Assembly (NCBI GenBank): GCA_012295275.1
Contig: CM022679.1
Coordinates: 6,572,001-6,636,000 of the forward strand
DNA: 64,000 nucleotides
Direction: 5' to 3'
Origin: Chrysomallon squamiferum
Taxonomy: Eukaryota > Animalia > Mollusca
Made by a program: the position numbers and the translations under genes. The notes beneath the pieces were generated by a model that was given only the letters and a program-made list of their open reading frames with translations, was not told the DNA's origin and made no database searches. This document shows, one piece after another, positions 3,474 through 41,560 of the stretch. The first letter of the stretch is position 1. Every line of letters starts with the position of its first letter.

Positions 3474-3540
<67 letters not shown>

Positions 3541-6834: not shown

Positions 6835-6867
<33 letters not shown>

Positions 6868-12538: not shown

Positions 12539-14772
12539 TATATTTTAATATAGGTTACTGCTAATCTAAGATAAAAAGATTATAATTATGTGACTTCCTA
12601 CACATTCTGCATGTGCCTTTATGTGATTTCATGCAACTAAATTAATTTTTATCTTCTAGTAATTAATTTAACCTGATGATTTAAAATTAATACCATTTCT
12701 AACTGTCATATATTAATATATTTATATATGACCATTTATCTGAGGTAAATGGTTAATAAAAATGTTAAAGTATCATGAATACATTTTTGGATTTCTTCAA
12801 TCTGATTCTTCTCTTTTGTAGTTCCTATTTTATTTTCAATTGATGAATAAATAAGTTTTTGAAATAAGTAAAGAAAAACAATAAGAAAAAAAATATAAAA
12901 TAAAAATTACACACTCCTATTAAGCTGGAGCAAGTTTGATATTACAGTACAATCTAGTAAGTAATGAATTATAAATATGATAATATACAATCATTTTAAA
13001 AAGCCATTGTTCTAATGTTATTCATATAACTTTCTTCATCTAAACTTTCTACAATTTTTTGTGGTTTCAGTTTAAAATGACATTCCATTATTAAAGTTAA
13101 TTACATAGTAACTAACTAAATGGCAAAGCTTTGGCTTAAATAACAAAATCACGAAGCAAATTTAATATGTTATTTCAATTTATGCATTTTATAAATAAAA
13201 ATATGCATAAAAAGGAATAATAAAGTTTCTAAATAGTACTGAATAAAAGTCATAAAAAATATTCTGTGGTTCACATAAAATTTATTAGGAACAGATAACA
13301 AAGTGCATGCATGAAGTTTATTAAAGTTTGAAAAACTTAGTTATTCTCATGTGACAACATTTAAATGTAAGTTGCATAAAAATATGATCCAGATGTTAAC
13401 TTTAAATAACAATTACATTTTGTGAAAGAGCTTCCAAAGTACAAGAATGTCCAAATCAAAAAGCCTGGAAACTTAATTTGAAAAATATTCATAAGGACAT
13501 CTCTAACATTTGTAAGCTGCATACTTTTGAATATGAAATAATTCACAGTATTTGGTACACAATTTTAAAACATGTCTGACTTGAAAAATACATTTTCTGG
13601 TATCTTCTAATTTGTTGTTTATTTTTGATTTTAGTGAAGAGAAGTGGGGAAAACGTGAGATACCAGGAAAACTGAACACAAATTGTTAATTTTGATATAC
13701 ACAAATAAATAAAATGGTAACACTGAGGTATACATGATTATATATCAGAAATAAAACATTTTTGAGAAAAACTCTGGCTTTCATTTTAGCAAAATATTTG
13801 TTTCATTAAATTTGGAGATTAAAAACATTTAAAACATTTTTGTAAGATGCTATAACAATATAATTATATTTAAACCATACAAATGTTTTTTTATTTCAAT
13901 GAATTTATTTGTTTATAAAGCCTTTAACAAATTACTTTTTTGATAAATTTATAATTAATCATACAGAAAAATTTCAGAATGAATTCATATTAATTTGTTG
14001 TTTTAATGTCAAAGACATTAATATTTTAATGTTTAATGTTTCAAAATCTTATGCAGTATGTAGGTTTTTTCAAAACATCTTCACAAAAACATGCAAAAAA
14101 AACAACAACAAATAAAAACAAACAAAAAAAGATTTATAAACATATAAAATAAAATAATATAAGCTTTCCTAGTTAATCGAAACATTTAAAAGATTTCATT
14201 ACCACAACACCCAAAATTATCAGTGATATTTAGTTATATTTGTTTAGTTTTTGCATAGTATACTTACATCCTCTTGCTGTAAAAATAATTATTTTCTATA
14301 GTTTATATTCAGTTTATGAAATAAATATTAATTTACATTTCACTAAATAGATAAATTATCCTATTGAAACATACCAATGTATCAAAAACTAGTGAACATT
14401 TTAAGTATTAGGCAATGATGAAAATAAAAATTAAAAAAACATTAGTGAAAACTGAAGAATACCAGCTAGAAATATAGAAAATTGTTAGAGAAGTTCAAAC
14501 ATAAGTGAAATGATAAAGAATAGTATGATGTTTTGAAAGTTTAAATGGATAAGCAGAGACTTAATTAATATTCTAAAATTCACAAACCTGAAACACTGTA
14601 AACAGGATTCAAAAAATATGCTTCATGCTGCTGTGGTAGCATATACCTCCTACGACTTATTGAAGGATGTTTTGTTGGATACATTGGTGTATTGTCATAC
14701 ATTTTTGTAGACAAGCGTGTTGCAATACTTGCTCTGTCATCATATTCATTTGGTTTTCTTATGTGTCTTTTC
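12417..14772 (-). CDS. Gene 2 cytoplasmic tail exons (14588-14772, microexon 14268-14276, final exon 12417-12436)
   Basis: KRHIRKPNEYDDR...YFLNPVYSVS-(ARGY or D)-DDPAI*; contains NPVY; TAG stop at 12417-12419. Confidence 0.72.
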
Positions 14773-17700
14773 CTATAAACCAGATAATTTGCCATACATT
14801 ATATATAAACAGATGCCTCTGCTGATCATGAAACGTAACATTTGACAAGAATTAATTCTATTTGTTTAATGATGACATTTTATTTCTATTCCAGTTTTTC
14901 ATACAAATGTTTACAAACTCATAATATTAGGAGCAATTCAAAGTACATAAATCCTTGTATGGCTAATATCATCATCATTTTCAAAGCATTGCTTAATCAA
15001 AATACTTAACACTAAAATTAAAGTCATAAATATCATGAACCCAATAACTACATAAACAAATGAATAAATTAAAATATAAATTTTTATATGGCAATGATGA
15101 TTTGAATTCTACAATAGAAATTGATTTAAATACATTTAACAAGCTAAACAGATATAAAGGAAATGAGCAATAAAGATGTATTCAATACATACCTTGCCAT
15201 AACACAGACACAAACAACAATAAGGATAATGAAAAGTAGCAAAGCAAGCACAGTAACCACAGCAATAATAATGGTTTCTTGGGTGTTGGGTGACAAACTT
15301 TGTGCAGCTGAAATCAAAAACACATAAAGTATTTTGATTAGAAAAAATATGTAAAAGTAATAATGTAATATAAATATTAAAAACAAGACAGGTGAAAAAA
15401 GGCAGAGAGTTATAAAAAGAAGATAATGAAAACAATAAAAGCACATCTGAAATAACAAAAAAAAAGTTTAACACTTAATGAATATTTCCTATCAACTTTA
15501 ACATAAGCAGAAAAACAATTAAACACACCATATCTCCAAATAAATAAAACAAATAAAAATCTTTAATGCAAATTTTTTTATTGGTTTTTGGAATAAATTA
15601 AATAAGCAACTAATACTTTAAATTAATATTTATATAATTTATGAATAAAAAACGTCTTTTTTTACGTTGTTTTAATTTCTGACTTCTTTAGGTAGGTAAA
15701 CTATAATATTTATTGTATAAAGGTTTTTTCTCCATCTTTTTTATTACATTTGCATAACAACATTAAAAAACAATCAAAAAACCCTGTCAGGTAAATATTT
15801 AATTTATTATGTGTTCATGTTTATTAAATATTTATATTTTTTTAAATGAAGATGTAAAAAAATTGCTAATAAAAAGGGTATGTATAAGAATAGCACAAAA
15901 AAAAACCACACACAAAAAAAACCTTTCTCTTACATTTTTCAAAACATCTTTTTAGTAATCAAAAATAAAATATATATGCACTCAATACCTATATTCTTTT
16001 GTTCTTCACATTTAAACCAAACTTTTTTAAATTAAAAACAGTTAAATGGGAAGATTGTTTATTGTTTTTAATACCTTTCCTTATTTCACACCGGTCTCCT
16101 GTGTAAACCTCATCACATATGCATCTCACTGGAGGCCCCTCAATGCATGTTCCTGAATTGCAGTATCCCGTTTTGCATTTATCTGTAAAAAAAAAAAAAA
16201 AATGGAAAATAAGAATGCAAACATATGTAAGGAAAGAATAGTTGTCTGTAATAATTTCCATAAATATATTGAACAAAAAATTTATTTTGAAAATTTTATT
16301 TATAATATAACCAACAATAATAGAAATATAATGTTAAGAACGAAGTCAAAATTATAACAATAACATATTATTATAATAATAATATTATGTAATGTTGGAC
16401 ATGGAAAAGTTTGAAAATCATGAAATGTAAATCTGTAGCAAATAACAAACAAAGGTTGTGGTAAACATTAGAGAAAGAATTATATAAATTTGGTCTGTAA
16501 TTAACACATCCGTATTTTCAGTTGTTATAATCTTTATCTATTAATACTTACGTTCACAAACAGTTCCATTTCCTACATAGTCAGAGTTGCATGTGCACAC
16601 AGAAGCATTTGGAGTATTTTTACATGTAGCATGTATGGAACACTTTGGCTTGTTTATTTCACAAAGGCCTGTAAATATTTTGAATAAATTCAGTACGTCC
16701 AAATTTAAATTCTTGGCAAATTATAAATTGATTTTGTTTTATTTTTAAGAAATAAATATTCGATTAAATAAAAAACATCTGACATATGTCAGATCACTGT
16801 TTTAGGTGTATCTTTTTTTAATTTTTATTAAAATGATTTTTGCTTTCATTAATTACTATGAGATATCATATTTTAAATTATACATTATAGTTTGATTTGA
16901 AGTCAACATATGAATTTATACCTTTACAGTCAGATCTTGATGTCTTGCCAGTTCCATTTGTAAAATATCCTCCTGGACAAGACTCACATGAAAATGAATT
17001 TGCAGCAGGTTGATATGTATTGTTAGGACACAACTCACAGGAATTTTCAGTACGACTGAAATACTGACCTGCAGTGCATGGTGCTGAAAAAAGATTGAAA
17101 TTTAATTGAAATGAGATTAAATCAGTATTATTATCCAAATACCCCATATATTACAAAATAAAAACAACTAAATCCTATAAAAACAACACATATGGATGAT
17201 TCTGATTTTCTAATACCTATATACACAGGATGATAATAATTACAATATATCCATTGCATATTGCAGAAAATATTCTCAATTACTTCATATGAACCATAAA
17301 ATCTTTTTTGGCTTTTAAATGGTATAATAATAATTGTAAAGTTGTCAAGACTCTAATTATATTATTTAAAAAATATATATATTTTGATAAATACTTACAA
17401 ACAGAACATTCATTAACTGAAACAGCTTTTGTTCCTTGTGTGGTCAAGCCATTGGTACAATTAGCACACTTCCAGGTCTTGGAACTATCACGGTATGTAC
17501 CAACTGGACAGTCCACACAACGGTCATTAACTTCATCGAGTTCCTGTCCAGATGGACAATTACCTTAAATTGTAGAAAGTTAAGATTTAATTTTTGTTAC
17601 TGAAACCAAATTACTCCACAAAACTGATTACTTCTCAATGGCAGAACATTTTTCTTCTAAAACAATGACAACTGATTTCAAAACAATTTATAAAGAAATA

Positions 17701-20700
17701 AAATCTTTTAATAATTTATAACTATAAACTGAATTTATTAATACTGGATATTAAGTTAAAACATACATTTTTTTGACAAATTGTTATTAAATTTTATCAA
17801 TTTATGTAACCTGTAAATGCTATTGTAAAATGTACTGTTGAAATTTCATCACTAGACAAGATAAACTTTGTTAGAAGCATAACATTAACTGTCATTCATG
17901 TCTGTCTGTTCTGTTTTTATTCTAAGTGGCAAGCAAGTAAAAAATGAACATCATTTCTGTTAGTAATTATTTTAAAATTTTCACAAAAACTGAACAAAAA
18001 TGTCATAGTCCACAAAAGCATAATGTTTCCAGTAATTGTCACACTTAATGTTTCAAACCTCTTTCTTTTACAGTGTTTTTTTTCAGATAAAAGAAAACAA
18101 AAAAATCCATCAACATACGAAGACAACTTGCAGCTGATGTACTTCCTTTCTCTTTAGTTGTATAATTGTTTGAACAATGGATACAGGACTCCATCCATTT
18201 TTCATTCTGATAGCTGCCTCGATCACACTTTGTACACTGATTAGTAAAACGATTTCTGTAGTAACCAGGGGTTGTGCAGTTTGCTGTGAAATGTTAAAAT
18301 ATATTAAAATATTATAAGTGATAATTCTCTATATACTGCTTACATGGTAAATACATTACCTGTGCTACTTATTTACAATGTTTTGTTTGCAACCTGATAT
18401 ATATTATTAATAATGTTGTTTGAAATCTCTAAAACTGTCAAAATTTAAATTTAATGAAAAGATTCCATTTTCAGCTATCATTTCCAAAATTTCATTGTAT
18501 GAAATGAACAGTTCTTATAACTAAGGAACAGTAGTAACTACCATAAAAGTAATAATTTAAGACCTAACTTTTAGAAAATTGTACATTAAATGAACATTTT
18601 GTTATTTCAAAACTCATTTATAATAAAATTATTTGCTTATTACAAAATCTTACCTATAGAACAGTCAGATTTACTTGTAGCTCCTGTCCCAGCAGTAATA
18701 AACTCAACAGGACACAATGTACACATGTCATTCTCTTTGTTCTGGTTGTCTTGGAAATAGCCACGTTGACAGGGAGTACAAACCTGGTTGACTATCTCCT
18801 CACCAGCTTTGCATTTAGCTGTAATGGAAAAATATGTATAAGTATCTAATATTAGTTACTAAGCAGTTTAGTACATTATTAACAATAATAAATTTCACTG
18901 CATTAGTTTTTGTTGTATACAACTATAAAATCAGATGAATAATTATTTTAATTTTTATTGATTTTTTAAATTATAGAGTCAGTTCAAGTAAAAAAGTATT
19001 AAATAATTTAAAGCACTACTGAGAAATTAACTTTCAAGAAATGTTCAAGCATTCTGATACATAATTTTAATTCTTGTCTGAAAAAAAAAGAGAAAAAAAA
19101 AAGAAATTGCATTTCCTATAGAAAAGTTTCCATAAAAAATAATATTTGAATTCTTGCTTCAGGAAGCCATTTCACAAATTAATCTACAAAAAGATGTGAT
19201 ATTAGATGCTTACACAAACATTCACTGGAATTTATAACCTCCTTTTTATATGTAGTGAATAATGTTTCACATTGTAGACATTTATCTTGCCATTTGTCAG
19301 GCTGATAAAAACCATAATCACATTCCAAACAGTCATTATTATTTCGGAAATAACCAGGCAAACAGCCAACTATTTATTTTTTATATATTGTTTTGGGAGG
19401 TTTTCATGGATGGAAGATTTTTTTCTTCCTTTAAATGTCATTCATTATATTTATAATAATATGTTTCCAGATATTTTAATTAAATATAACAACCAAATAT
19501 CTTAAAATTTTTATAGATCAACATTAAAATTATAATTATTCAATATGTAACTGATATAACTTAAAAAAGATGGTCATTAAACCACTTTTTTCATTTTTTT
19601 ATTTGTTTTAATAATTGATTTTCCATATTCATTTCCAATTTATTGTGATCCTGGTTATGAAAAAAATCCAGAGACTGGTGCATGTGAAATTTGTGATCGA
19701 GGTTATTTCAAAGACAATAATGTTGATGTGTTCTCCATGTGTACAGTTTGTTCAAACTCATCCTATATTACTGCAGGGAAAGGGGCCACATCAGAATCAC
19801 AATGTACTGTTGGTGAGTGCTGGTCCCTGGGACAAATTTGTATATACATTTTGTACCTTTATTATTTATAACATTAAAAAAATTGGTGAGCTAGTTTATT
19901 TAAAGTTATTGAACATCCATGCTAATCAGCATCAATTTATGTTTGCTCTTATTATTATTTGATACATACTGTGAAGGTAAATGTGTCTAAAAGGCTTCCA
20001 TCCATGTAATAAATATTTAACACATTTAACAAAATAGCTGCTTCTGAACTTATCCAAAAGAAAAAAAGTTTGAATTATGGAAATACTAGATTGAACTTCA
20101 GATGATTAGAAAGGATCTTCCAATACAGATAACATTTCTATGACATTGTTAAATATTTAATAAATGCAGTGAACTGATCTTCTTCTTGATTTTGTATTTG
20201 ATATATAATTATTTCTTTAGCAATTTACTATCTATTCCAACATTATCTTTTAGTCAATAACAGATCTGAATAAAATAGTATGATACTGCTATTATCTGTA
20301 ATTAAACAAAACTGAGAGGGGAAGAGACAGTGTGAGGCAGAGAAAGAAAGAAGAGAGAGAGAGAGAGAAAACCCAATTTCAATACATTTAGTAAAATATG
20401 AAATTAGCTATGTAAAAATATTTTCTCAGCATGCATGCTAAAATTAAAACAGTCAAACTTACGTTTGCAGTCTTCAGCTTTAGAAGAAGCTTGAGATGAA
20501 GTTGTAAATCTTTCTCCTCCACATGATACACACTGATACTGATTAGGTTTATCTTGATAGGTGCCCAGTTCACATTTCAAACACTCCAGCTGATTGGATA
20601 TGTTTCTGTAGAAACCTGGCTGACAGTCACCTAGTTAAAAAAAAGTTTATTGTTTTGTACTTTCTTTTCAATGTCTTTCATAGAGAGGAATAAAAGAAAT

Positions 20701-23700
20701 ATTTGTAAATCTGACATTTAATTAATGATATTTATTCATAATCTTTTAAATTTTCTTGTTTAATGATGAAAACTAACTTTTAATACTTTTTTATCAAACA
20801 ATTTCCTTTCAGATTTAGCTAATCTGATCAAACACTGCTTCTTACCAACATTACACATTAATGGAGAAGATGCTCCTGTTTCATTTGTTGTCGTTTTTTC
20901 AGGACATTCCACACAGGTGCGATCATTGGCTGTTCTGTACTTTCCAATAGGACAGGGCTGACATGATCCATCTTGAGAAATTTCTTTACCTGGTGGACAG
21001 TCATCTAAAAACAAATTATTTTATTCAGAAATTAATGTGTGGTTTAATTTATAAAATTAAAATAAAACCATTGTTAATATTTTATCAACAGACAGCCTTC
21101 AATATTTCACTAAATTTCATAATACAAATCAAAAATTATTCAATAAAATTAATTCTCAATTTTAGAAGAAGTAAGAAATTTAAACTAGTAATTAAGAAAC
21201 CTCATAAACTTACTGTAACAGTCAGATTCACTTGTAGATCCTTGAGCCCTTGTAGTGTTTTCCACAACACATGGTTCACAGTAGAACTGACCTGATGAAC
21301 TTTGGTAGAATCCATAATCACATTTTTCACATTTGTCAGAATTATAGCTAAAATATTCTCCAGGCGTGCATGAAGCTGAAAAGTAAAAATTATGAAAATA
21401 AAATAATTTTGAAATATTTTGACAGACTTCAGAAAGGAATCTGCTGTCATAATTTAATTTAGTATTTTATTTGCTATCAAAGTTCACAACAAATGGAACA
21501 TATCAAAATTGTTGATGTTTTTCATGTGCTGATTTATATTTTGCAGGTAACCAGAGACAATATATCCATTCATCCAAAGAACACAACTGCAACCTTTTTA
21601 TTAAAGCTGTTACAGTTACTCAAGTCATTCTAATATTTTTATTTTTCCAGTCAGAGAATTACCCCAGATAAAATATTATATACTTATTTCCCGTTTTGTT
21701 TGTATTTTTGGTTTCATTTAAAACTTAATCTGTGACAAAAGATGATAGTAATAAATGAAAATGAATATATATATATATATATATATATTTTTTAATATGT
21801 TCATGGATCCTGATTTAAAAGACTCCAAAGCAATATAAATATATATATATATATATAGTATTACTTTTAAATTAAAAAATCATAATTATATGTAATATTT
21901 AGAAAATATAATTTAAAAAAAAACAAAGCTTTCATACCTTTACAGTTAGTTTTGGTGTTTGATCCTGGCAGCTCTGTAGTTTTTCCAGAATCACATGGTG
22001 TACAAGATATTTGACCAGCTGATGTCTGATACTGACCTACTGGACAGTCATCACAGGTCTTGGTTACATTGTTGTAGAATGTACCTGGTGCACATTCCAC
22101 TGAAAAATAAAAAATGAACTATTATCAACAGCATATTTTCTACAACACAGAATCTTTAAAATTTAATCTCTCTATCTGCTTTATAAAAATCATGTATATA
22201 CAAAATATATAATGTTTTAAAAATTCATAAAGTGATAGATTTTGTAGAAAATTAATGTTTGTTTTTTTGTTTTTTGTTAAATGCATTTTTTATTATTATT
22301 ATTATTTTTTTATTAGTATTATATCTGGCAAAGCAAACGACTGTAATATGTCATGTACATAGTTTAAAACATTTTCAACACATGACACTGACACTAATAC
22401 AAGACAGTTAGTAACTGGAGGCTGGTGTATTTTCTGTGATCTTACTTTTTTGGGAGACAACTCAAAATAGTTATTTATTATTTCTATAATGTGCAGTGGT
22501 TTAACTTTATACATTAAAGTTACTTTATCCCTAATCATGAACTGGACAGATTTTAGCATCAGTTGAATACTTCTTTCTTTACCTAGCTAAAGCAATCATT
22601 GCCTTTCTATACAAACATACATCACTACTTGTGTTTTCCTTACTCATCACAGTCATCTAAAATGGTTAATCTGAACATAAATATAATTTTCTGACATGCT
22701 GGAAGTTTTATACTTGTAATTAAAATCAAAGACATCAGAACAAAGCATTAGCAATTCTGATCCAGTGAACATAACCTGAAACAAATATGGACATATTTAA
22801 ACGTTTGATTATGAAGAACAAACAATTAATTTATCAAGTACTCACCACATTCTTGCTGAACAAGAGCCTGACCAGATGGACAAGCAAGGTCAGCTGAGAT
22901 AACAACTTCATGACTTAGTGGAATGCCATTTGAAATTAAATTCTGTAAACATTTTGATTATATACATGTATGTGTGGATAACCAAGTAGCTTAAATTTTC
23001 TAACCAATTAAGTAAATAAATAAATAAATAAAAACAGTGAAAAAAATGTACATAACTCACATCAACAACTGATTCATTTTAAGTAATCGTGCATTTGATT
23101 TAAATTAAAAAAATATTTTCTTAAATATTAATTCTATATTTAAGTTGGGAACAAATCATTTTTTAATATTAATAATTTATAAAACAGATGGAAGTATTAA
23201 CTATGTAGAAATATCATTTTTAAGATTTTTTCCCCCAAAAATTGTAAATTTTAATAAAAGAAAACATATACTATTTATTAAAATGTTGTTTTATGTAGAT
23301 TTAAATTAAGAAATACAACTCTGATCTAACTTGAATTTAAATGTAAAAAATTTATAGCGCAATGAGAAATAAGAAGGTACTGAAAACTAAACTCACACTG
23401 AAGTCAAAATCATTATCAGTGAAAATGCTACGTTTTAGCACATCGGTAGCAGGCAGTGTTTCTCCAGATGTAGATGTCACAGTGACACTGAAACCAAACA
23501 GAAAATCCATAAACAGATTTATTTCAATATAATACTTTAAATGAATATATTCATTATACATTTTCATTTGAATATCTACAGTTTTGGCATCCATGGTTTT
23601 GATCAACCATAGTGCGATAACATTTACTCAACATAGTATAAAACAAATACTACAAAGCAGAGTGAGTTAAAAATCAGACGTTTTACTTCTATTTTTTTAA

Positions 23701-24592
23701 CATTAAATATCCTACCAGTATATTTCAGTAATTACAACAACTCATGAATCATTCTGATTAACAACTTTTGTGAAATATAATTCATTATTATTCACATGAC
23801 ATTTAAAAAAACATATGTATAAAGGGAAATGGAAATGTTTTATCCCAAAATTTACAGGGAACAGTATATTCAGATAATGTCATAACCAAAAATATACAGA
23901 GGGAGATAAATGTGGATGACATGAGACTGATATAAATATACATAAATATATATATGTGTTTTTGTGTGTGTGTCAAAATTGTTTTCACCTGGGTCCAATG
24001 ACATGTGTCACTGATGCAAGAATCCATTAAGATTTTTGTACTTGCCAGTCATTACTTGTTTTCTTTCTTCCAAAATGTTGGTTTCATACTATTGCCAGTA
24101 ATGATTAAAATATTTAAGAATGTTAGACACTATGTGTCTTCTTTTCTTAAATTGTGTGGCTAAATCTTTCTGTTTGGTTAGCGAATATGATGTAAACTCT
24201 TCTATTAATTTTACTTAGGAGTGCAATGTAAGTTTGATTTGTTGCTGGTTTTTTAGGTCACTTTTGCATTACAAATTCAGTAAGATGTGTGACATATGTA
24301 TTTAACAAAGTCACTACTTTTGATGCTAAATCCAAATGAGTGAATTCATTAACACATACTGGTAATAATCTCATTTATCTAGCTGCATATAGTAATTATA
24401 ACAAGGACAGCATCACTGCTCATTAAGACTTCAAAGAAATACAATTATTATGTAGACTAATTATGTGCCAGTTGCAGTAAGATGGGTATGTACTTGCAAA
24501 ATGTAGACAAAAGTAATTACTATATAAATTATTCTTTTGTTGTAACAAATTTATACCCAAATCTAGATAATGTAAATGTGTGTGTGTTGCAT

Positions 24593-24640
<48 letters not shown>

Positions 24641-27600
24641 CTATACCCATATATATACATATACTGATGGAGAGAATATTTATATAGAATTTAATTTAAA
24701 GAACTTACTTTGCTTGTGGTAATGTAATGTAAGCAATGACATCATTGGTAGCTCTTTTTCTCCTTTTTGTGATGAGGTTTGTTCCACATTTTATACTAAC
24801 AACCACATCATCACAGTTTGTCCTTTGGCAAAGATTTGGCCATTTTTTATTCAGCTGCATGATTTTTTTTCTAATTTCCTGTTCCAGAGTTGTCTTAACT
24901 CCTTCACAGTTTGATGTTCCCACAGTGTAAACAAGCTTTATTTTCACTGTTTGCAAATTATTCATTTTTTTGGCTGTAAATATAAATAAATTTTAAAACA
25001 AAATTTTACATATTTCTTCATTTAACCTTCTTTAAATATAATATTAAACCAGAAATCATAATAAGAAACTATAAAAATTTATTTTGTAACATGAAACAGC
25101 AACAGACATACGAAACATCTACTCTTAACACACAAACATACAAATAGACATACAACTCACAAACAAACACAGATCTACACTGATATTGATACACACATAC
25201 TTATAGATTAAAAATATAATTCGAACTTGCCTCCACAAGGTGGCAGTCTAAAATTGATAAACTTTTTTGGTGGGTTCCAACTGCCAATACGATCACATGT
25301 GTATGTTTTTGGAACTGGCCTCACCACAGCTTTGTTATCATTGCAGATGATACTGGTGTGGTAATATTTTTGCTGAGAATTGCCATATGATGCAGTACCC
25401 TGATATGGATCAGGTGGCTTTGGACAATTTCGATCTGTGAATAATTGAACAAAATATGACATATTAGATGCATATATATAGATGCAACATATCAAATGTA
25501 TTTCTGATTCTCACATTCACTAAATTTACACTAACTTTAGTTTAATTATTATTATTATTTGTTTTAGTATTTTGGTATAAGCTGTTTTTATCACAGCTGA
25601 TTTAAAAAAACAAAAAAACAATGATATTATAATTTAAAGAATAAAAAAGAAGATTTTTGCTAAAGATAGAATTCAACTGAATGAGTTTGTAAAAGCTCAT
25701 ACATGATATTCTCAACAGTGTAATCATTTATTTGAAACTGACAAAACTAATTTATAAAAAGAACACTGGATAGAAGTGTTTTCAATAAATTCAGACAGTT
25801 ATATGAAGAGAATAAACTTACACTGTACAAAAATTTTGAAGCTGCAAAGTCCTTTGTTTCCTGCACTGTTCTCAGCTACATACACAACAAGATATTTCCC
25901 CCACAGGAAAGCATCACCTGCAAAAAATAAATTTAAAAAGGGATTTTTGCTTGTTTATGTTGCTATTCAATATTTAATAATGTAAAATAGTGAGTGAAAA
26001 AAGTTAATATATTTACCAGAGCTGTAACTCTTCTTGACAACACTAGCTTCTCCAACAAACTTTGGTTCATTCCATGTAACATATGTGATTCGTGAAGTTC
26101 CCAGTTTCTTGACATCAGATGGACAAAATGTTGGCAAAACCATAATTTTTTCTGTAAATGTTTTAATTATTATTATATTTGTAAAACAAAAATATTTTAA
26201 AAAGCAGGAAAGAATATTATACTTTTATAAATAGTCATAGATGATAAATCAAAAGTAAAAATGAAATAATCTATTTAAAAATTAATGTATTTTTGATGTA
26301 AAAACATTAACATGAGCATTATTAATTACTTAATGAACCACAATAGTTGTATCAAAATAATTAACCATATTTTAAAAAGTCAGCAGCAGTTTTGGAGGTT
26401 TTTTTCACACAATGATAAGGAATAGATTTTCAGAAGTTAGTCATCTTACGTGGGTTTGCTTGTTTGCAGGCTGGTGCTACTGAAAAACCTCGTGGACAGG
26501 ATTCATAGGGCTTTTTAACTGTAGAAGGAATAATCATCTTTACCCCAGCTGAACGTACAAATTCATTCCAAACAAAGATGTAATCTTTAAACAATTTTTG
26601 TGGAAAGTCTACAGATTCCTGAACTTCTGTACTGAAATCGAGGACACGATTATAAATCACTAGCTGGCTTATCCAACCGTTGAATCCTTCATTAGTTACT
26701 GGTTTTTCTATAGCTGGGTCGTACTTGCTCCCTAAAACAAGCCACACACTGAAAATAGAAAATAATAATATTAAACATTATTTCAAGTTATAATGTCTTT
26801 ATTTGCAAAGAAATTAATGGTATATTCACTGGTTATATGACATCTGAAAATGACCTAAAAATTATGGATGCTACTTACTGCTTATATTAATACAAAATGT
26901 GTATAACTGAACTAAGCTATTAGATCATATTTAAAATTGTGTCTAAAAATTTATATAATTTTAAAATCGTTTTAAAAACTCAAAATTTTCTCAGAGAAAT
27001 AAGTTTTAAAAATATGTCTAGTCATACAAGAAAAGAACAGATTAATCTGAAATATTTACCTCTATAAAGTAAGGAAATATGACAAATAAAAAAGAACTTC
27101 AAAAAGTTTATTAGTTAGTTTTAGAAATAAAGTACATTTAGTATCTCAGTTTTAACACTTTGTTTTCCTCCTTAGATTCCTTATACAGTATTTCATCTTT
27201 TCAGTGAAATTTCAGGAACTTGGCTTATAACAGTAAATAATAATAATAATAATAATTTAAAAAAAACAAGTGTAATTTTGTTATCAAAAATTAAAACAGT
27301 TTTATCCCCAGTGATTTATTGTTTTTCATTTTGTAATGATTATGATGACTAATTAAAGGTAATTAATAATTTTCTCCTATTAACCTGTAACTATAATACT
27401 TGGCACTATTTCACTAAACTTTAATGATTTCAGATCCAAAATATAAATAAATAAATAAATTAAAAACATTCTCTGTTTTTTTTTTTTTTTTTTTTTTTAT
27501 TAATAATGGAAATGACATTTATTTAATTATATAATGTAATACAGGAGAATTTGTTTATGTCTGCTTGAGGTTAAACAGCCATTTTATTATTTGTTAAATT

Positions 27601-30600
27601 AAAATAAAATAAAAATAAACAGCTCTTGAAACAAAATATTGACTTGTTCAGATGAATGACTAATTCTGAAACTCTTCACAGTTTGTCATTAATTCTTTTA
27701 TTCTCCATTCCAAACATTATGTCTAATTTCCAAGTCATACACACTTAGAACATATAGAATCTGTTTAACAGTTCTACACATTTAATTATTGATATATATT
27801 CATAATCTTTAAACTTTCTTGTTTAATGATGAAAACTAAATTTTAAATCAATTTTAAAAACAAGTTTCTTCAAGATATAGCTAGTCTGATCAAACACTGC
27901 TACTTATCAACATTACAGATTAATGGGGAAAATGCTCCTGTTTCATTTCCTCTGTAGAAGAAAATAATTACTTATGTCATGATTACTCTGTTTGTCCTCC
28001 ATCAACTATTCAGAGGTATTAATAAATTAATGTCACACTTACTTTTCATCAAGAGTTACATCCTTTGCATAACTCTTGATGGGACTGCGATTAATACTGT
28101 TTACTATGAAGTTTAGTTTTCCTGTTGTGCTGTCCCAGTTGATGATAATGTTGTTCCATCGTCCATCATTGTATTTGTAGTATGGAAAATCAAAAAAGGT
28201 ATTACTGCCATTAAAGTCAATGTAGAGACCTTTTTCATCAACACGCAGGAGTTCTTTCTTTCCACTCAAAGAATTTGGTTTTCTGTCAAAATAATCATAA
28301 ATAAATTTGATATATCAATGGTTAAGAAAAATATATAACTTGAATAATTTTGTTCAAGTATCCAATTAATATTAATTTTAAAAAATCAATCTAAAATTTC
28401 ATTTTAGAATATTGTTTACTGTCTGAAAATTAACTTAAATCAGGTAAAAATATAATGTAATTGTTAGAATTTTTATAGGTAAAATAACATGTTTTGTGAA
28501 AATGAAAAGTCTGGTTCATTTTGGTTTAACATTAAAAGTCAGCATTTATAATAAATATTCACATTATAGTGCTACAAACTGTTTTAAAAATATGATGTAA
28601 AGGTGTGTTTTTGTCATTATTTGTCAGTGTTGGATGAACATTATTTTGTAATCTTTAATGAAATTCACAGATACAACCATAAGGCTGAAACCATTCCTTT
28701 GGTTTTCTCACTAGTTATAAAATAATAAATAAGACTTTAATAGATATATATGTGTTAAAAACTGATAGCAATAAAATGAAATTAAAAGCAAAAACTTACG
28801 CAACAGAAAACATGCTGAAAAAGGTGCCTTTTCCATCTTTTTCCCAGAATCTGACCCAAATGCTAATAGTCAGCTGAGTGACTTTCAGTTGAATTGGATG
28901 TGGTAATGATGCCATGTTTGTTTTTTGTGGCAACTCAAACAGTAAGTCATAATTTCGGTTGACATCTGTAGAAGAAAAGGAAGATAAAAGGGTTTAATAA
29001 TTATTACCTTTCAGAGATAAAAATTTATACTCACTTGCTGTTTAGATCCATTCATATTTGTTAGTATAGAAAGTATAATAAGGTAGTAGTAATTTGATAT
29101 TATGCTTTAAATGAAAATATCAGACTTTTTGATCAGAGAACTCTTTTGTAGTAAAACAAGTAAATTTATTTTACTATGAGATTTTGTTTTTGTTTATCAT
29201 TATTTTCAAATTCTCATAATTATTATTATTTTTGTTGGTGATTTTAACCTTTTGAACATGACTCTCCAGTTTTTCCAACTGGACATCTACAAAAGTATTC
29301 ATTGACACCATCAATGCAACTTCCACCAGGACATGATACACCAGCACAGTTGTCAACATTATTTTCACAGTTCTTGCCATCATAACCTGAAATAAAAATA
29401 CCAGAAATAAACATCATTTCTCTAAAACAAAATTCATTATAATAAATGAAAATAATATTTAATATTCTTCAAACAATAAATGTGAACTCCATTGAATTCA
29501 ACAGTAGACTGATAAATGTAAATTGATCCAACGTTTCATACATTTCTCAATATGTTAAAAAATATATTATAAATTTCTTACAAAAACTACTCTAAATTAA
29601 ATACTAAAATTAATAATATTAATAATAATAATAAAAAAGTTAGGTGATTACCATTAGATCTAATCATATAAATACATATTTGGATTTGTTATATTGAAAT
29701 CTGTTGATAATGAAAATGAACAAATTAAAATATTAACATTCCTACTGACAAACTGTTTCAAACTCGTACGTTTATCTTTGTTCACAAACCTGGTGTGCAG
29801 GCACATGTGTAGTCATTGGTTGCTGTTTGAGTACAGGTTGCACCATTTTTACATGTGTTACTTTTACAATGGTCAACACGTAACTCACACCCATCACCTT
29901 CAAAATCTGGAAAACAAAATCACAAATGTTTGTATCCTGCTAATAGTCTACTTAACAGGTAAAAATAGTTTGGATTTTTTATTAAAATACTGCCAAAATA
30001 CTATTATAATTCTTGTTTGTTAAAATGCAATTTTTTTTAAATCTTTCAATTGTTCCAAAAATGAATATTTTTTTATGTCTATTTTGTTTTGGAAGGAAGT
30101 ATGTATATATCTACACAGGTTTGTGTTTGTAAGTATATATGGTTATGTGGATGAGTATAAAAGACATTATGGCTGTATTACAAAACAAACTGGTTAATAA
30201 AAAATAAACATGCAATTATTATATTAAACAGTGTAAATAATTACAAACCTTCTGTACAGTAGCAGCTGGCTGTACCCGCAGTCTCATTGCAGTAGTTCAT
30301 GTGTTGACAAGGGTTGGCATTTGCACAGATACTAGGATTGCTTTCACATGTTTTACCGTATGTGTTAGCTTTACACCTGAAATAAAAACAAAATTCAAAT
30401 AAATGGTAATGGGAACAAAATGAAATCTAATGCAAAAAAAATGTATTATCTATTTTTAGTAAATTAATTTAAAATAAGTAAGCAAGTTACAGAAATCAGG
30501 GTGACCTTTTGAAAATAATTAATTCCACAGTCAAAAATAAATTAAACTAATATAATTATGAGCATATTTTTAATGAACTGATAAATTATCTTGTTTTATA

Positions 30601-33600
30601 TCTTATTAAGTTTACACGTTTTGATAATAAATGTATTATATTTCTATCAAGTGATAGACATTGTTTAAACAGTCTTGTTAAGTACGTACTTGCAGAAGAA
30701 ATCATTAAATAGGTTGAAACATTTTGCATTGTTGTTACAGGTTGCAGGATTACACAGTTTTACAATGTCATTACAAGACTTCAGATTCTTCCATCCATCT
30801 GGACACTGACATGTGTATGTACCTGGAACATTTTTACACTGACCACCATGAAGACATGGTTCACCAAGACTACATTCATCAACATCAGTCTGAAGTAGAA
30901 CAATAGTATTATATTTAAAATACTTTTTCTAATATCACTACTATTCATAATTAGAAATAAATGTAAATCTTGAGAACAATTGATTCATTTGTTATTTTGT
31001 AACGATATTAAATATATATATATACTTAGAAAAGAGAAAATACTGAAATGTGAAAGTACATGAAAATTTGGAAATCAATTGCTGTGTTTAAAAATTCAAA
31101 GTAAATACAATTCAAAATTAACTGTAATTAAAAAAAAAAAAAATTAAAATGTAGTATCAGAAAAACTTGTCTGATTGTGTAAAACAATATATTCTCAGTG
31201 ACATTTTCTGTAAAACTATTAATCATGTGTAAAAATATATTTTATTATTATTGATGTATAGATAATAGATATAGATAGATAGATAGATGATACCAACACA
31301 AAAAATAAAATAAGATAAAATGAAATAATAAAAAATAACGTCAACTAGCTAATTCATGTAACTTTAATAGTATTAAAATTATCATTAAAATATAATAATT
31401 TAAAATAAAAACACTGAAGAACACCTGAAGTTTTAGAAAATAAATCTAATATTCTAATAAAATCATACCTCACAATTCTGACCTGTCCAGCCTTTTGGAC
31501 AGTCACATTCATACCCATTAATACCATCTTGACACTTTCCTGAATTCTTGCAAGGATTTGGTTTGCAATCATCAATGTTAATCTCACAGTTTGTGCCTAA
31601 AAGTATTATGACATGGTAAGATTTATTTGTTGTTACCCAAACATGTTTTAAAATAATATATTTTTTGTTTAAAATCAGAAGAGGATAATTTGTCAGGTTA
31701 ACAAATTATTAGTATTTTGTATATATTACAGGACAAAAAAAAAAAATCTATGTAATGGCACAATTAATTTGATAATAATCAATGAATATTTTGACAAGAT
31801 CTACAGGACAACTGGATAATGTTTGTTGCTTTAGCAGGCCAAAAATGAATATATGTCATTATATTAATGGGTTTTTTTTAAATGGAATGAGTGTTTTGGC
31901 TTAGTCACAGAAAAATATTGGAACTGTTTGTAAGTTGAAATGTTTTTACAGGCAAACATTCATATCTGATTCTGAATGACTGTTTTTGATAATTTTTCAC
32001 ACCTGAAATTTAGTTTTTTTTTGCTTTATACAATATTATCTTTTCTTGATTTACCCTTGATTTTTTTTAGATTAGTCATTTTATAGAGAAAAAGCCTTAA
32101 TTTTGACAAATTAGACTATTAACATTTATTAGTAACATACCAGTAAAACCATCAGCACATTTACAAATATAGTCAGAAAGTCTGTCTTCACAAGTTCCAC
32201 CATTTAGACAGGGTTTCGATGCACAGTAGTCAATGTCATGTTGACACAGGGAGCCTTGGTATCCTGTGTTACATGAGCATGAGAAACCATCAACTTTTTC
32301 CTGACAGGTTCCATGTTGGCAAGGACTGCTTTGACAGTAAGCTGGTTGAGTGCAAGTATTTTCAGTGAATACTGAAACAAATTTTAAATGAAATCAATGG
32401 AATTTTATTAAGAGATATTTTCTGCTGCTAATGAAAAAACATTAAGACAAGCCCAAAGACAGTTATTAGGCCAAAGTTGCCATTTTACAAATGTTAGTTA
32501 TGCAATCATTTTCTTTCCTGTTATATAAAAACTGTTTTTTTCTTAACACTTAATAGCTGTTAATATTAAAATGTTGTCATTTCATTTTTTATTTTTAATT
32601 ATATTTTTAACTAAAGACATATTTCAAGGATGAATAGGATGATTTTGTTTAGAATTTTGCAATAAATTCAGTAAAGCATATAACTGAAGCATATAATTTA
32701 ACTTTGAATAAATAATAATAATAATAATAACAACTACAAAAAATATATCTAATACAAATCTGATTGTCTGATTCTACATACCTCGACTGACAGCACATTT
32801 GAAACGGATTTCATAATCTTCACACTGTTTATCAGTTTGATCTTTATTGTTGCAAGTCAGTCCAGTGGCCACTGAGCAGGTAATAGTCTCGTTTGGAGGC
32901 GGTTTGTTGGTCACATCTCTGCACTCAACATTAACAGGATCAGTTCCTTTACAAATCGCAATACCAACCTGAAGCAGAAATTTAAAATACAATTCTGGGA
33001 TAGGATAAAGCTGACATCCTTCATCTTTAATAGTTTATTACTTTTATATGGAAAGGAGCAAATAAAATATCCCTTGCTGCTTAATGAAAAAATAATAGTC
33101 CTTTGTGTTACAGCAGTGTAATTCCTCTCTCAGTCATTGTATGAATATAAACATGTGCATGACATCATTCACAACAAGATTACAAATGTGTTGAGTACAT
33201 TGTTAAATAACACATTTTTTCTTTGTCATTACAGTTTCAGAAAGTAGCACCACATTTACAACCACAGTGATCTGAACTGTGGTAATAAATAATGTTACTT
33301 CTACTGTCACTTAGAACTGAACTAATCATACTACTGGTTAGATAATGTATGATATTTCATAAATAATGTTATTATCACAAACAATCTACTGTTAAAAAAT
33401 GTATACTATTTCATAAATAATGTTATTATCACAAACAATCTACTGGTTATCAAATATATAATATTTCATAAATAATCCTATTACCATAAACAATCTATTA
33501 ACAAATGTATAATATTTCATTAAAAATGTTGTTACCACAAATTTGGATTGAAATGTTAGGTGCAATTATTTTTCAGTAACTGCAATATTTCTGCTCTGAC

Positions 33601-36600
33601 TAGAGACAATATCTAACGTGACTCATTTTGAGTACATCATCTTTTTACATTATTTTTATTCCTATATCAAACTCTGATCTGCATCAGTGATACTGATATT
33701 TACAAGAGAAATACTTTAATTAACCACAAAACATGTAAATAAAAACTTATGTTAAAAACAAATACATACCCGTCTATTAAAGTAGGATAAACAACACTTT
33801 TTCATGTAAAATTTCTATTTATTTAACAATTTTTTTTTATATTAAAATTTAAAAAAATATTGCTTGTGATTTGAAATTTCTTATATGTTACAAAATCATT
33901 AATGATTACTGTATTTATATATTATCAAAGTCATTAATAATATACAAAAACAAAAATTGCAATACATGTGTAAGCATTCAAACCATTATTTACTCTTCCT
34001 GTTTTATTATAAACTTTCTAGTTTTTCTTTGTGTTCACGTTTAAAACAACTATTGTAAATTACCTGATTTCTAATCAAAAAGCATTTTATTTAAATAAAA
34101 TCTTGTGATATAAAAGTCATTCTGGATTATATCTTATGAAACTGTTAATTAATGAAGGAGCATTATAGTATGTTATAGGCAATGAATATAATCAAGCAAT
34201 TTGATTAGTCTTTCATTTTATTTGAGTAACCTTGAAGGCATATGTAAATGTGTAAGACAATATTTTATACAAGAAGCAATTTTCTATATTATATCTGGAT
34301 ATTATATATGTTATTGTCTGAGATTACATTAAAAAAACAAAAAACAACAAACAACCCCAAAACAAACAGAAAAAACAATCACAACAAAACAAGAATATAT
34401 TTCAATATCAAATGAGACACGCACTGCATGGTGATATTTTATATTCAGTAAGCATGTTAGTATATATAAATACTAACTTCTTATACTGCATAAAGATATC
34501 TTTAAACGTTTATGTTGGGATTAAATTCTAAATAATGACTTACCTCTAATAAAGTGTCATTATTTTCTTCATCTTTTGAATTTATATCAGTTGTAGGTTT
34601 CTTTGTATTATACCATGGAGTCCAAAAATCATCTACAGAAATAAAATAATCCAGACTGCTATAATGACAAATTTACAATTATTTTTTGTGAATATTATTC
34701 TTTCTGCATCATTCTAGATTCATTTGTATGTTTTCTTTTATGCCCAATGCATTTGTAATAAAAGTGTCCTAAAAATTCTTTTAAAACCTTTTTCTATTGA
34801 AAGATTCCATAACAGAATTTTTAAAATTTTTCTATGCATTGTTTATATTTAAATATAATAAGTAGAATATTTTAAACTTGATCTAATCACAAAGTTTAAT
34901 GACAGTAACACATAAGATTAAAAATCAGTTTGAAATATGTATCTTGAAAACAATTCTAGATGAAATAAAAAATAAAGAAAAACTTCAATGGTCAGTACAT
35001 CTGAAAACTAAAAAATACCATATATATGATTTAATCAGTGTTGTAAAATAATTCTAAAATATCCATCTGTGTGTATGATAAATACAGACTAAATATGTGC
35101 TGATATATTCAAGTATGTGATATAAAACTGACTTTTCGTTTAGTGTATAAAACTGACAATGCATAAAAGATATACAGTACATTAGCCTTTGTATTACCTG
35201 ACAGATCTTTACAGGTTTTTATGTAGTAGTTGGTGCTTTCTGAGTCAGTCAGATTTGTGGTTGCTCGTCCATGTAACTCACAGTCATTACTTGTAGCGTT
35301 GAAAGTAAAAGCTTTGCAGTCAAATTTTCCTTCACAGATATTTAGACATTCCTTGGCAGTTTTGTTACTGTAGGACTTTATTACTGATGATGAAGTCATC
35401 TGCTTCTTAACCATTATGTCATACTGACAGAACTTTCCTGCAACATTTAAAGTGAATAACTCTGTAATTAATATAAGCACAAATATAATGTACATCTGTA
35501 ATAACACAATAACAGTAACAATAATAATGATAACAATTATAATTTGTTTTATAATACACACTGATAATAATAATTTAATTTTGTTTTTAATCTATTTATT
35601 CCCTGGTGTTTCTGCTACTTAATTATTCTAAAAGGTGTTCTTGAAACACATGAAAAAAATTAAAGGTTTAATGAAACAGATTTTAAAATGTAATTGACAT
35701 TATAATCCAGTAAAGTAGCTACATCCTGAAAGTGGCACAGTTGTCCAATCAACAGAACTGTAACAAGCTACCATCTATTATCATTTTCATTTTAAATCTT
35801 TTCTGAATCCAAACTGTCATCAAAGTTATCTCAGAATTACAGTATCTTCTACACAATGACATTTTCCATTTTAATAATGATAATGTTTTTGTTTAATTAA
35901 TTATGTAACTTTTATGTTTTACATTCACATTCTGCTAAATCTCTTTTGACCTTGAAATTATAGCAATCAAAATAAGATTAAAATTAAAACAAAAAGTAAT
36001 AAATTAAAACGTAAATATATAATTTACCATAGAGCATTCCAGCATTGCAAACACACTGGTATGTGTTGTGAATGTGGTCTGCCACACACTGCCCAGGTCC
36101 ACACTGCACACCAAGACACTGCTGAGGAGGATTCTCACACTGCTGTCCAGTGTAGCCAGATGGACAAGTACATTCAAAACCAAGATGTTTATCTTTACAC
36201 GTGCCTTGATAATAACAAGGATTTGATTCACAGTCATCTGTTGTGAGAAAAACGAATAAATTTGTTTTACAAGACTCTTTTTGAATGTGGTATATTGTGT
36301 ATTTAATATTTATGAATAGTAATAATGCCAGCTGTGAGATTAGCTTATTTATAGAATTGTATTATGAAAAAGAATTTTTTTTAATTTTTTTTTTTTAATT
36401 TAATAACTGATAATGATAAATAACTACAACAAAATGAACTGGTTGCTTTTTCTTTCTTGCTGAAATTGTTGGCTAATAAATTAACCTATTTCCTGTGAGC
36501 AGTCTTCTGCAGTGTAACCAGCCTGACACAGACATTTTCTGCGGATGTTTCCCAAGGGTACACAAATAGCACCATTCTTGCAAGGATGAGTTGTACAGAC

Positions 36601-39600: not shown

Positions 39601-41560
39601 GTATGTGTGTTTTATATATATGTTTTATATATATACATACATACATACATACATACATATACACACACACACACACACATATATATGTGTGTGTGTGTAT
39701 GTATGTATATATATATATATATGAAGATGGTTGGAGAATATTAATAAACTGTCATGTAAATTACATTAAGAATATGTGATTTCTTGCATCAACAAAAAGA
39801 TTAATAATTTCATCATAAAATATTGTAAAAAATTGGTAACTTCATGTACAAACCTAAAAACATTCTATATAAAATATGAAACTGACCTGTTTGTGGAATA
39901 AGTTTTTTTTAGAATATAGCTAGAACTTGAAAGATATGTCATGCATCAGTAAGAGTTAAACCCTGTGGCATATAAATCAAATTCACTTTTTGCAAATCAA
40001 ACAGATTTCATATAAATAGATATCTCCAAAGGATCACAGAGATAAAGAAAACAATTTCCTTTCTTACCTCTTGCATACTTTTGCTGCACTTTCCCATGGT
40101 GATAAAGATGTAAAGAGTCTGTAACACTGTACTCCTATGTTTGTCCAGCCTGTAAAACAATAAATTTTGTGAAAAATGAAAATTAAAACTGAGTTTTTGG
40201 GGTTGTTTTTTATCCTTATTATCTAAATATATAATAAAAATATTTCCTTATCTTTCGACGTCATAATTCATACTGGGCAATCGTTGTGCATTTATATTTT
40301 TTGTTTATGATATTTAACTGATTCAGACAACGGTATAGCTTTTTGTACAAGAATTATGTTTTTTTTTTGTTTGTGTTTTTTGTGGTTTTTTGACATCTCT
40401 GTCAAGTTCTGAATATTTTACTATCATTTAAGTGGTCTAATTATAAATATTTCTTTTTAAAAAAAAAAAAAAAATAAAAAAAAAAAAACCTCACCTGGTT
40501 GACAATCAACATTTGTTGTCAGAGCATCTGTCTGTAAAAAACAATATAATATGATATAATAGAATGGAATAGAGCCCCACTGGCTAATCCTATATTCGTT
40601 TAATATCAGCATCATAATAACAGCCGTTTTGTTTTGTAAATTCATGAATTCATGACTTATAGAATGACTTCTCTATATTGTAGGTTAATCAGATATTTTA
40701 AATATTTGTTTAAAATTTACTGTTCCAATTAGAAGGCAACCAAATGTTATTGTAGGACAAGTTGATATTGCTACAGTAAGCAACAGGGGGAAGATGGGTA
40801 AAAGGATCCAGAGAATGAAACGAAAACAAAAATTCAAGTTAAAATATTCACTGACACATAAATGATACAGCAATCCATTCATATACAAACATTTATATAT
40901 TTTAATATTCCACACGATTTCGTGTCATTGCTATTAACAACAATAAAAAGAACACATAAATTGAAAATCCTCTGCAAAACTGTACAACATTAAGAACAGT
41001 TAACAAAAATGTAAAAGATCAGGTGTGCTCGGCTTTGAAAAAATAAAATAAAAAAGTTTCTATATTTAAAACATCAGAAATAAAATAAAATAATAATACA
41101 TATATATATCTGCTATTCTGTCCGCTTTCCAACCATCTATTTCTAATTTAATCCCAAAATAACATAGCAGTCATGGTTTGTATGTATGTATATATATATA
41201 TTATACATAAGCTACTAAGATCAAACACAATCCGGAGAAGATACAATAACTAATAAAAAAATTGTATCAGTGACTTAGAAAACTGAAGAGTTTACTTTCA
41301 TCTTTAATTATGTAAAGTTTATTGTTTTTCTGATCAAATGATTAATCAAATATATACATTCTGTTGGTTTTGGGGTGTTTTTTTTGCATAAGGTATTTGT
41401 AAATGCTACGTTTTACTAATGCATAAATTCGAAAACTTTAAAATTCAAATTAAAAGGTTATTGGCTTCAAAATAGTAAATAAAGTATGCAGACGGGTATC
41501 CCACACAGATTAGAAGTAAACTCAGGGCATTTTTTTTTATTTAAAATAAAATTTTTTAAA

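What the first reader, a model, noticed from the sequence alone, without database searches (positions are those of the whole stretch)
19639..19812. A native coding exon flipped in place inside a modular repeat array
Seen: an open 174-nt phase 1-1 Ephrin_rec_like exon lies on the plus strand between two minus-strand exons of gene 2, with all six Cys and a consensus GTGAGT donor. The array alternates A-type repeats (C..G.E..., ending C.V/I) and B-type repeats (C..G.(Y/F)..., ending CK/CL). The flipped exon is exactly the A-type unit missing between B-type exons 20463-20630 and 19214-19369. It closely resembles A-type exon 18654-18818 (RGYF.DN...MCT.C...ITAG.GATS.S.C). Re-inverting it gives a seamless CK-L-YCDPG...CTV-V-GCLPG join. 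Inference: a micro-inversion removed one repeat from the ectodomain without breaking the frame. It could be fixed, polymorphic, an assembly artefact or, speculatively, a switchable cassette that changes ectodomain length.
Basis: partly seen in the sequence, partly recalled or inferred. Interest (0 to 1): 0.85.

Follow-up and report, generated by a model that had tools for sequence, protein, structure and literature searches.

The report
Dead backward exon from complex rearrangement
In a gene for a giant cell-surface protein of what is likely a sea snail, the backward exon is a splice-damaged and likely extra copy of repeat 9 of 16 on a rearranged chromosome that likely segregates beside the normal one; the messenger RNA carries that repeat forwards together with six repeats the window lacks, so this is a complex structural variant and not a one-exon switch.

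Summary
The backward exon is real (Ephrin_rec_like above cutoff, six Cys, GT donor), but its acceptor reads AA, not AG. It is not one unit flipped in place. An RNA contig carries it in gene-sense orientation with 699 and 315 extra coding bases on either side, and the closest orthologue maps the window's exons to repeats 1-4, 9, 12-16 of 16: seven repeats (396 aa) are missing from the sense strand. The inverted segment is 622 bp (19376-19997). Both window junctions occur in DNA contigs of public runs, so it is not a plain mis-assembly; the same runs hold the segment between other flanks, at 1.6-2.1 times neighbouring depth, while one run lacking the right junction has single depth. Best reading: a segregating complex rearrangement with an extra inverted copy, likely from template switching (a 12-nt inverted template spans the right junction). 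Whether repeats 5-11 are lost, moved or inverted and collapsed is unresolved. No switchable cassette.

The parts
19639..19812 (+). Antisense copy of repeat exon 9 (of 16) of the Ephrin_rec_like array; open frame, GT donor, acceptor reads AA
   Evidence: RNA version differs at 4 listed sites (19676, 19680-19682) and aligns only from 19640
19376..19997 (+). Whole inverted segment S (622 bp): 263 nt of upstream intron, exon 9, 185 nt of downstream intron
   Evidence: loose ends before 19376 and behind 19997 in X3, X5, X2
19370..19381 (.). Left novel junction, 6 nt upstream of the repeat-12 exon; replaces that exon's pyrimidine tract by A-rich DNA
   Evidence: bridged by X2 record 3 (19262-19410, 0 differences); pyrimidine share 0.24 against 0.52-0.76 at the 8 other sense acceptors of the array
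19995..20006 (+). Right novel junction (S ends 19997, flank resumes 20001); this 12-mer is an exact inverted copy of 19405-19416
   Evidence: bridged by X2 record 9 and X5 record 25 (19905-20030, 0 differences), X3 record 18 with 30 nt on the short side; 2 matches in 64 kb, 0 in 100 shuffles; repeat I5
19405..19416 (-). Likely template of the right-junction sequence, about 30 nt inside the left end of S
20463..20630 (-). Repeat exon 4
   Evidence: best match repeat 4 of P0108, 37 of 55 identical
19214..19369 (-). Repeat exon 12
   Evidence: best match repeat 12 of P0108, 30 of 50 identical
16922..22099 (-). Repeat array as assembled: exons of repeats 1-4 and 12-16 in sense, all phase 1-1; repeats 5-8, 10, 11 absent from the window
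14589..40159 (-). Matched part of the host gene: large type I membrane protein with EGF, PAN, WxxW, LamG/pentraxin, HYR, Ephrin_rec_like array, TM segment (about 15200-15290) and cytoplasmic tail
   Evidence: tblastn of P0108, Pfam, TM stretch read

Best explanation
The backward exon is an acceptor-dead, antisense copy of repeat 9 inside a 622-bp inverted segment whose two junctions exist in the DNA of several runs, on a rearranged chromosome that likely segregates with a normal 16-repeat allele, likely carries the segment twice, likely arose by replication-type template switching, and would splice repeat 4 to repeat 12 or 13 in frame. Shown: the mRNA has repeats 4-[5-8]-9-[10-11]-12 with repeat 9 in sense; the window lacks 5-8, 10, 11; segment S has two left flanks and two right flanks within single runs. 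Inferred: carriers hold an extra copy of S. The configuration I favour (about 0.35 on its own) is the only linear path that uses all four S junctions with just one unseen junction: repeat 12 - S - repeats 10, 11 - repeats 5-8 - S - repeat 4, with the whole block of repeats 5-11 antisense and S as a direct repeat at both ends; the window then arises by assembly collapse, or by a real later deletion, between the two S copies. A block moved elsewhere fits the data equally but needs more unseen junctions. Either way the flipped exon does nothing itself; the likely effect is an ectodomain 396 aa (7 repeats) shorter, or 448 aa if repeat 12 is skipped too.
For: RNA: X9 record 23 (3149 nt) has 19640-19812 on the strand opposite to all other exon pieces, with gaps of 701 and 314 letters, i.e. 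233 and 105 codons; in orthologue P0108 repeats 5-8 span 233 aa and 10-11 about 106 aa. X8 and X10 contigs also run from the exon into other repeats. DNA: both window junctions bridged in X2, the right one in X5 and (30-nt side) X3; the same 3 runs hold S with other flanks on both sides; X5, X2 and X1 hold the right flank with another neighbour. Copy number: exon-9 contig depth against the repeat-12 contig 1.60 (X2), 1.81 (X5), 2.06 (X3); X3 538 against 270 for a near GC-matched exon contig (0.38 vs 0.37 GC); X1, whose depth over 19938-20128 is fully explained by two contigs that leave 19961-20000 uncovered (6.02 predicted, 6.01 seen), has ratio 0.8-1.0. Three sequence types of S at 19935-19965 in X2, four in X5. 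Window-type AA acceptor is carried by X3 record 14 (0 differences) and X5 record 20 (1 difference, at 19514). 12-nt inverted template across the right junction.
Against: All read evidence is short-read contigs with one flat depth each; depth swings about two-fold between AT-rich and GC-rich stretches, and the repeat-12 contigs are poorer in GC (0.32) than the exon-9 contigs (0.38-0.40). Runs may be pools, which would also give 3-4 types. The left junction is bridged in only 1 of the 4 DNA-type runs among the pieces shown (26 of 123 rows, 32 of 399). The predicted third junction was not seen (it lies outside the window). No transcript joining repeat 4 to 12 or 13 was seen (15 of 22 joints shown). 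X2 shows a third left neighbour of the right flank that this model does not explain. RNA and DNA runs are different samples. A hole in X1 is not proof of absence.
Confidence: 0.55

Rival explanations
1. Plain deletion-inversion-deletion exactly as assembled: repeats 5-8 and 10-11 were deleted, the 622-bp piece between them was flipped, and each chromosome holds S once.
For: Both junctions in one run (X2) with zero differences; it is the assembled sequence; the same class is known in humans (298-bp inversion between 5.7 and 9.9 kb deletions in CEP78; PMC6286558, passages).
Against: Exon depth 1.6-2.1 times the neighbour in the three junction-bearing runs but about 1 in X1; three or four types of S per run; in X3 the depth of bin 20000-20031 equals the junction contig alone (274.9), yet X3 also holds S with its normal flanks.
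Confidence: 0.25
2. The carrier chromosome keeps an intact sense array and only gained an inserted inverted copy of S (with a duplicated flank) next to the repeat-12 acceptor; the assembler dropped the block between the duplicated flanks. No protein change unless repeat 12 splicing suffers.
For: Extra copy of S in carriers; X2 shows three left neighbours of the right flank; flank depth in X3 is high (275-335) for 27-28% GC.
Against: X3 shows no contig with the normal left neighbour at 20001; flank depth in X5 (108) and X2 (15) is below, not above, the repeat-12 side; in X5 two of three types merge into one contig with the AA acceptor.
Confidence: 0.09
3. Pure mis-assembly: the junctions do not exist in any animal.
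For: The window lacks six exons that the mRNA has, and has a 200-N gap elsewhere.
Against: Novel junctions sit in contigs of 3 runs from 3 studies, without differences from the window. One of these may be the assembly's own sample, but not all three.
Confidence: 0.05
4. Opposite-strand trans-splicing as at Drosophila mod(mdg4): the block of repeats 5-11 lies antisense yet reaches the mRNA from a separate transcript.
For: The mRNA holds an exon that the assembly shows on the other strand; X3 may be homozygous for the right junction while keeping RNA-type exon-9 sequence.
Against: A normal collinear context exists in DNA (other neighbour at 20001 in X1, X2, X5); the window copy has no AG and differs from the RNA at 4 sites; it would need two trans-splicing steps around internal exons; RNA samples are not genotyped.
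Confidence: 0.04
5. One reading: one exon inverted in place, possibly a switchable cassette.
For: Open frame, intact donor, A/B alternation, a 21-nt imperfect inverted repeat near the two ends.
Against: Seven repeats missing, not one; the other flanks of S are not the reverse complements of the window's flanks; no strand-change joints; dead acceptor; one repeat arm lies 26 nt inside the left end and the other straddles the right end.
Confidence: 0.02

Closest known systems
Complex structural variants of the delINVdel / dupINVdup classes (PMC6286558; passages read)
   Same: Small inverted piece between two missing stretches inside a gene; microhomology and short inserted bases at a junction; replication-based origin (FoSTeS/MMBIR) proposed.
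   Different: Here the inverted piece seems present in extra copy, all affected exons are symmetric phase 1-1 so the frame would survive, and the variant appears in 3 of 4 DNA-type runs rather than in one patient.
Intragenic single- and multi-exon inversions (Invas, PMC13484493; passages read)
   Same: Exons reversed within their gene, germline and recurrent cases exist.
   Different: Not a two-breakpoint inversion; no inversion-derived transcript was seen.
Snap-back SD-MMEJ / polymerase theta templated junctions (PMC2943611; passages read)
   Same: An inverted repeat that spans the junction and includes a few inserted bases.
   Different: That paper scores templates within 20 bp of the junction; here the template is about 580 bp away, which suits a longer template switch. 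Mechanism inferred, not tested.
Hemizygous structural variation in molluscs (bioRxiv 10.1101/2020.09.15.298695; abstract and outline read)
   Same: Large within-species differences in gene content are described as widespread in mollusc genomes.
   Different: This case changes repeat exons inside one gene and includes an inversion.
mod(mdg4) trans-splicing (PMC4387717, one figure-legend passage; PMC13490949, listing only)
   Same: Exons of one mRNA on opposite strands of a reference.
   Different: There terminal exons are the fixed design of the locus; here a collinear allele exists and the antisense copy is splice-damaged.
Lophotrochozoan Uninflatable/SVEP1-like giant proteins (P0108 Gigantopelta aegis, P0013 Haliotis asinina by their database labels)
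   Same: Collinear exons, 50-78% identity over the ten repeats to P0108; CUB, sushi, EGF, LamG/pentraxin, HYR, Ephrin_rec_like content.
   Different: Window shows 9 sense repeats instead of 16. The likeness to Drosophila Uninflatable and vertebrate SVEP1 in domain content is recalled, not tested by a tree; PMC12867482 (passages) only confirms that Uif is a large EGF-bearing transmembrane protein.

Membership tests
Ephrin_rec_like repeat (PF07699) | Score above Pfam cutoff, six cysteines | tested here: met
   27.3 vs 23.1 bits; six Cys
Working exon of gene 2 (window copy) | Gene-sense orientation | tested here: not met
   + strand in a - strand gene
Working exon of gene 2 (window copy) | AG acceptor and GT donor | tested here: not met
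   donor GTGAGT present, acceptor AA; 9 of 9 sense repeat exons have AG; AA type also in X3 and X5 contigs
Simple in-place inversion | No gain or loss of flanking exons | tested here: not met
   699 + 315 coding bases of the mRNA absent from the window
Simple in-place inversion / switchable cassette | Both orientations between the same flanks | tested here: not met
   no strand-change joint in 4 runs (full table); other flanks of S are new sequence
Switchable cassette | Inverted recombination sites at both ends | tested here: not met
   best pair 19402-19422 / 19989-20009 is offset from the left end by 26 nt
delINVdel | Inverted piece with loss on both sides | tested here: met
   true of the assembled sequence against mRNA and orthologue
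delINVdel | Inverted piece copy-neutral, lost pieces absent from the carrier chromosome | tested here: inconclusive
   depth 1.6-2.1x and 3-4 types argue against; contig depth is coarse
Duplication-inversion complex variant | Both copies phased on one chromosome | not testable with these tools
mod(mdg4)-type trans-splicing | mRNA joins exons from separate transcripts in an individual lacking a collinear allele | not testable with these tools
   RNA and DNA runs are different samples
mod(mdg4)-type trans-splicing | Own promoter for the antisense exons | not tested
   contigs give no strand or start
Uninflatable/SVEP1-like proteins | CUB, sushi, EGF, LamG/pentraxin, HYR, Ephrin_rec_like domains with a TM segment | tested here: met
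   domains on orthologue P0108, collinear match to the window, TM stretch; the defining list is recalled
Uninflatable/SVEP1-like proteins | Orthology to Drosophila Uif or vertebrate SVEP1 | not tested
   no tree built

The most novel reading that the evidence does not exclude
On a common chromosome of this species the whole seven-exon block (repeats 5-11) lies inverted in place between two copies of exon 9, as if a deleted circle had been copied back in, and homozygous animals still build the 16-repeat mRNA by trans-splicing from the opposite strand: an internal-exon, polymorphic counterpart of mod(mdg4) caught while arising.
Probability: 0.04. Interest if true: 0.85.

Novelty: new member of a known kind. 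Interest (0 to 1): 0.33.

Why it matters
If the best reading holds, a wild mollusc population carries two lengths (16 and 9 or 8 repeats) of a conserved giant surface protein through one complex rearrangement; 9 of 18 relatives checked have exactly 16 repeats and 16 of 18 have 15-20, so a frequent short allele is a testable case of stalk-length variation. It also means that a gene model built on this assembly is wrong for the normal allele. It is not a new kind of system.

Tried and rejected
No whole genome was held, so the missing block could not be sought beyond the window; within the window an HMM of the repeats found none of it. Protein searches found no record of this species' own protein: 0 of 2 candidates scored; among all stored proteins none is near-identical to a window exon. 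Metagenome contigs: 288 pattern matches, none confirmed. Organism B's run X10 carries the same four exon variants as X8 and X9, so it is not counted as a second species. X1's uncovered 19961-20000 is a hole, used only as a hint together with its unbroken alternative flank. Rejected: in-place single-exon inversion, switchable cassette, separate plus-strand gene (the exon is part of this gene's mRNA), plain mis-assembly. The in-frame AGs at 19568 and 19670 do not matter while the copy is antisense. Literature searches were by mechanism, not by gene or species name, so I make no claim that this locus is undescribed; no supplements were read. Earlier scan notes: none near, one unrelated backward MHC fragment, not used.

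Full report
Observation. The window has an open frame at 19639-19812 on the plus strand that encodes a six-cysteine repeat scoring above the Pfam cutoff for Ephrin_rec_like. It lies between minus-strand repeat exons of a large gene. Its donor is GTGAGT, but it is preceded by AA where all 9 sense repeat exons have AG. An HMM built from the window's repeats finds 12 clear hits in 64 kb: ten in this array, two in the neighbouring chitinase-type gene, and only this one on the plus strand.

The gene. The best relative found is P0108 (labelled Gigantopelta aegis, 4014 aa), which matches the window collinearly from 40159 to 14589 and has CUB, sushi, EGF, LamG/pentraxin, HYR and Ephrin_rec_like domains; the window has a TM stretch near 15200-15290. 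The animal is therefore likely a gastropod. P0108 has 16 repeats in this array, and the ten window exons match repeats 1, 2, 3, 4, 9, 12, 13, 14, 15, 16 in that order at 50-78% identity; the flipped exon scores 213 on repeat 9 against 127 on the next best. In Haliotis P0013 nine of ten map the same way. In more distant relatives the flipped exon matches repeat 5, 7 or 9 about equally, so the assignment rests on the closest orthologue and the RNA. Of 18 long relatives that I picked from the 64 hits, 9 have 16 repeats, 16 have 15-20, and two cephalopod proteins have 10 and 12.

The RNA. X9 record 23 (3149 nt) contains the array's exons in order, with 19640-19812 on the strand opposite to the rest, that is in gene sense, and with 701 and 314 letters that are not in the stretch on either side. 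Corrected for edge bases these are 233 and 105 codons; repeats 5-8 of P0108 span 233 residues and repeats 10-11 about 106. X8 and X10 contigs likewise continue from the exon into other repeat sequence. So the normal mRNA has all 16 repeats and the window lacks repeats 5-8, 10 and 11 and shows 9 backwards. The RNA version differs from the window copy at four listed positions and does not align over the first base. No joint from repeat 4 to 12 or 13 was among the 15 of 22 joints shown; X8 and X9 differ from the window at many exon positions at full depth, so they likely express another haplotype and say nothing about the rearranged one.

The DNA. Seven of the 12 runs listed were laid. Loose ends place the flipped segment S at 19376-19997. 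The window's left junction is bridged by X2 record 3 (114 and 35 letters on the two sides, no differences). The right junction is bridged by X2 record 9 and X5 record 25 (93 and 33 letters about 19997, no differences) and by X3 record 18 with 30 letters on the short side. These three runs come from three studies. The same runs hold S with a different left flank and a different right flank, and X5, X2 and X1 hold the DNA from 20001 with a different left neighbour. None of these other flanks is the reverse complement of a window flank, and no joint changes strand, so there is no simple re-inverted allele. The AA acceptor is in X3 record 14 and X5 record 20, so it is not a consensus error. Only 26 of 123 pieces and 22 of 28 loose ends were shown, and 32 of 399 pieces.

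Copy number. Exon-9 contigs are 1.60, 1.81 and 2.06 times as deep as the repeat-12 contigs in X2, X5 and X3, and 538 against 270 for a near GC-matched exon contig in X3; in X1, where two contigs with the alternative flanks account for all depth across the right junction, the ratio is 0.8-1.0. X2 has three types of S at 19935-19965 (11.7, 14.2, 6.8) and X5 four (69.6, 58.9, 30.2, 29.6); the type joined to the window's right flank is nearly identical to one joined to the other flank, and the rest are much more diverged. This suggests that the rearranged chromosome carries S twice. Against: contig depth is flat and GC-sensitive, runs may be pools, X2 has an unexplained third neighbour at about 20000, and X3 fits either three or four copies.

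Mechanism. The left breakpoint is 6 nt before the repeat-12 exon and leaves an A-rich acceptor region (pyrimidines 0.24 against 0.52-0.76). The 12 bases across the right junction are an exact inverted copy of 19405-19416 inside S; the 12-mer occurs twice in 64 kb and never in 100 shuffles (the motif was chosen after seeing the repeat). A junction contained in an inverted repeat is the signature described for synthesis-dependent end joining (PMC2943611, passages), though there within 20 bp; at 580 bp a replication-type template switch, as proposed for complex variants (PMC6286558, passages), is the likelier reading. If flanks are single-copy and S is double, one linear path uses all four S junctions with one further junction: repeat 12, S, repeats 10-11, repeats 5-8, S, repeat 4, all of 5-11 antisense. 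That is a permuted copy of the block, as a re-copied circle would give; collapse or deletion between the two S copies yields the window. This configuration is inferred and unphased. Because every repeat exon is phase 1-1, the rearranged allele would stay in frame and lose 396 aa, or 448 with repeat 12.

Comparison and verdict. It works like a delINVdel or duplication-inversion complex variant inside a modular exon array; membership of plain delINVdel is open because copy-neutrality is doubtful. It is not a simple inversion and not a switch. Structural variation is described as widespread in molluscs (bioRxiv 10.1101/2020.09.15.298695, abstract). Novelty: new member of a known kind; interest 0.33. 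The boldest reading not excluded, opposite-strand trans-splicing in homozygous carriers, gets 0.04.

Noticed in passing
window 17751-18118 (intron after repeat 14): Both RNA runs cover the start of this intron; X8 record 18 runs unbroken from repeats 12-14 into it (depth 63.9) while six intronic bins have no X8 cover. The frame continues 25 codons to a stop and AATAAA lies on the gene strand at 17916 and 17734: possibly a secreted isoform without the TM segment. X8 also covers two other introns at depth about 13, so unspliced RNA or DNA is not excluded.
   Followed up: partly
window 389-6867 (-): Neighbouring gene with a GH18 chitinase domain followed by two Ephrin_rec_like-type repeats and an exon resembling 24708-24992 of gene 2 by eye.
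   Followed up: partly
window 19370-19400: The repeat-12 acceptor has lost its pyrimidine tract on the assembled allele, so this sense exon may be skipped as well.
   Followed up: partly
window 19471-19604, 19831-19997, 20940-21243: Deeply diverged intron types in the runs (about 10% substitutions plus indels, a 28-35 nt insertion near 19600), pointing to old haplotypes across this gene.
   Followed up: no
window 38372-38571: 200-N gap inside gene 2; P0108 residues 91-1809 have no match at E 1e-6 between the exons at 38995 and 36621, so a large part of the gene's 5' half is also missing from this assembly.
   Followed up: no
P0102, P0113, P0004, P0001: Repeat number varies among relatives (14, 20, 24 and about 30), so the array expands and contracts by whole exons in evolution.
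   Followed up: no
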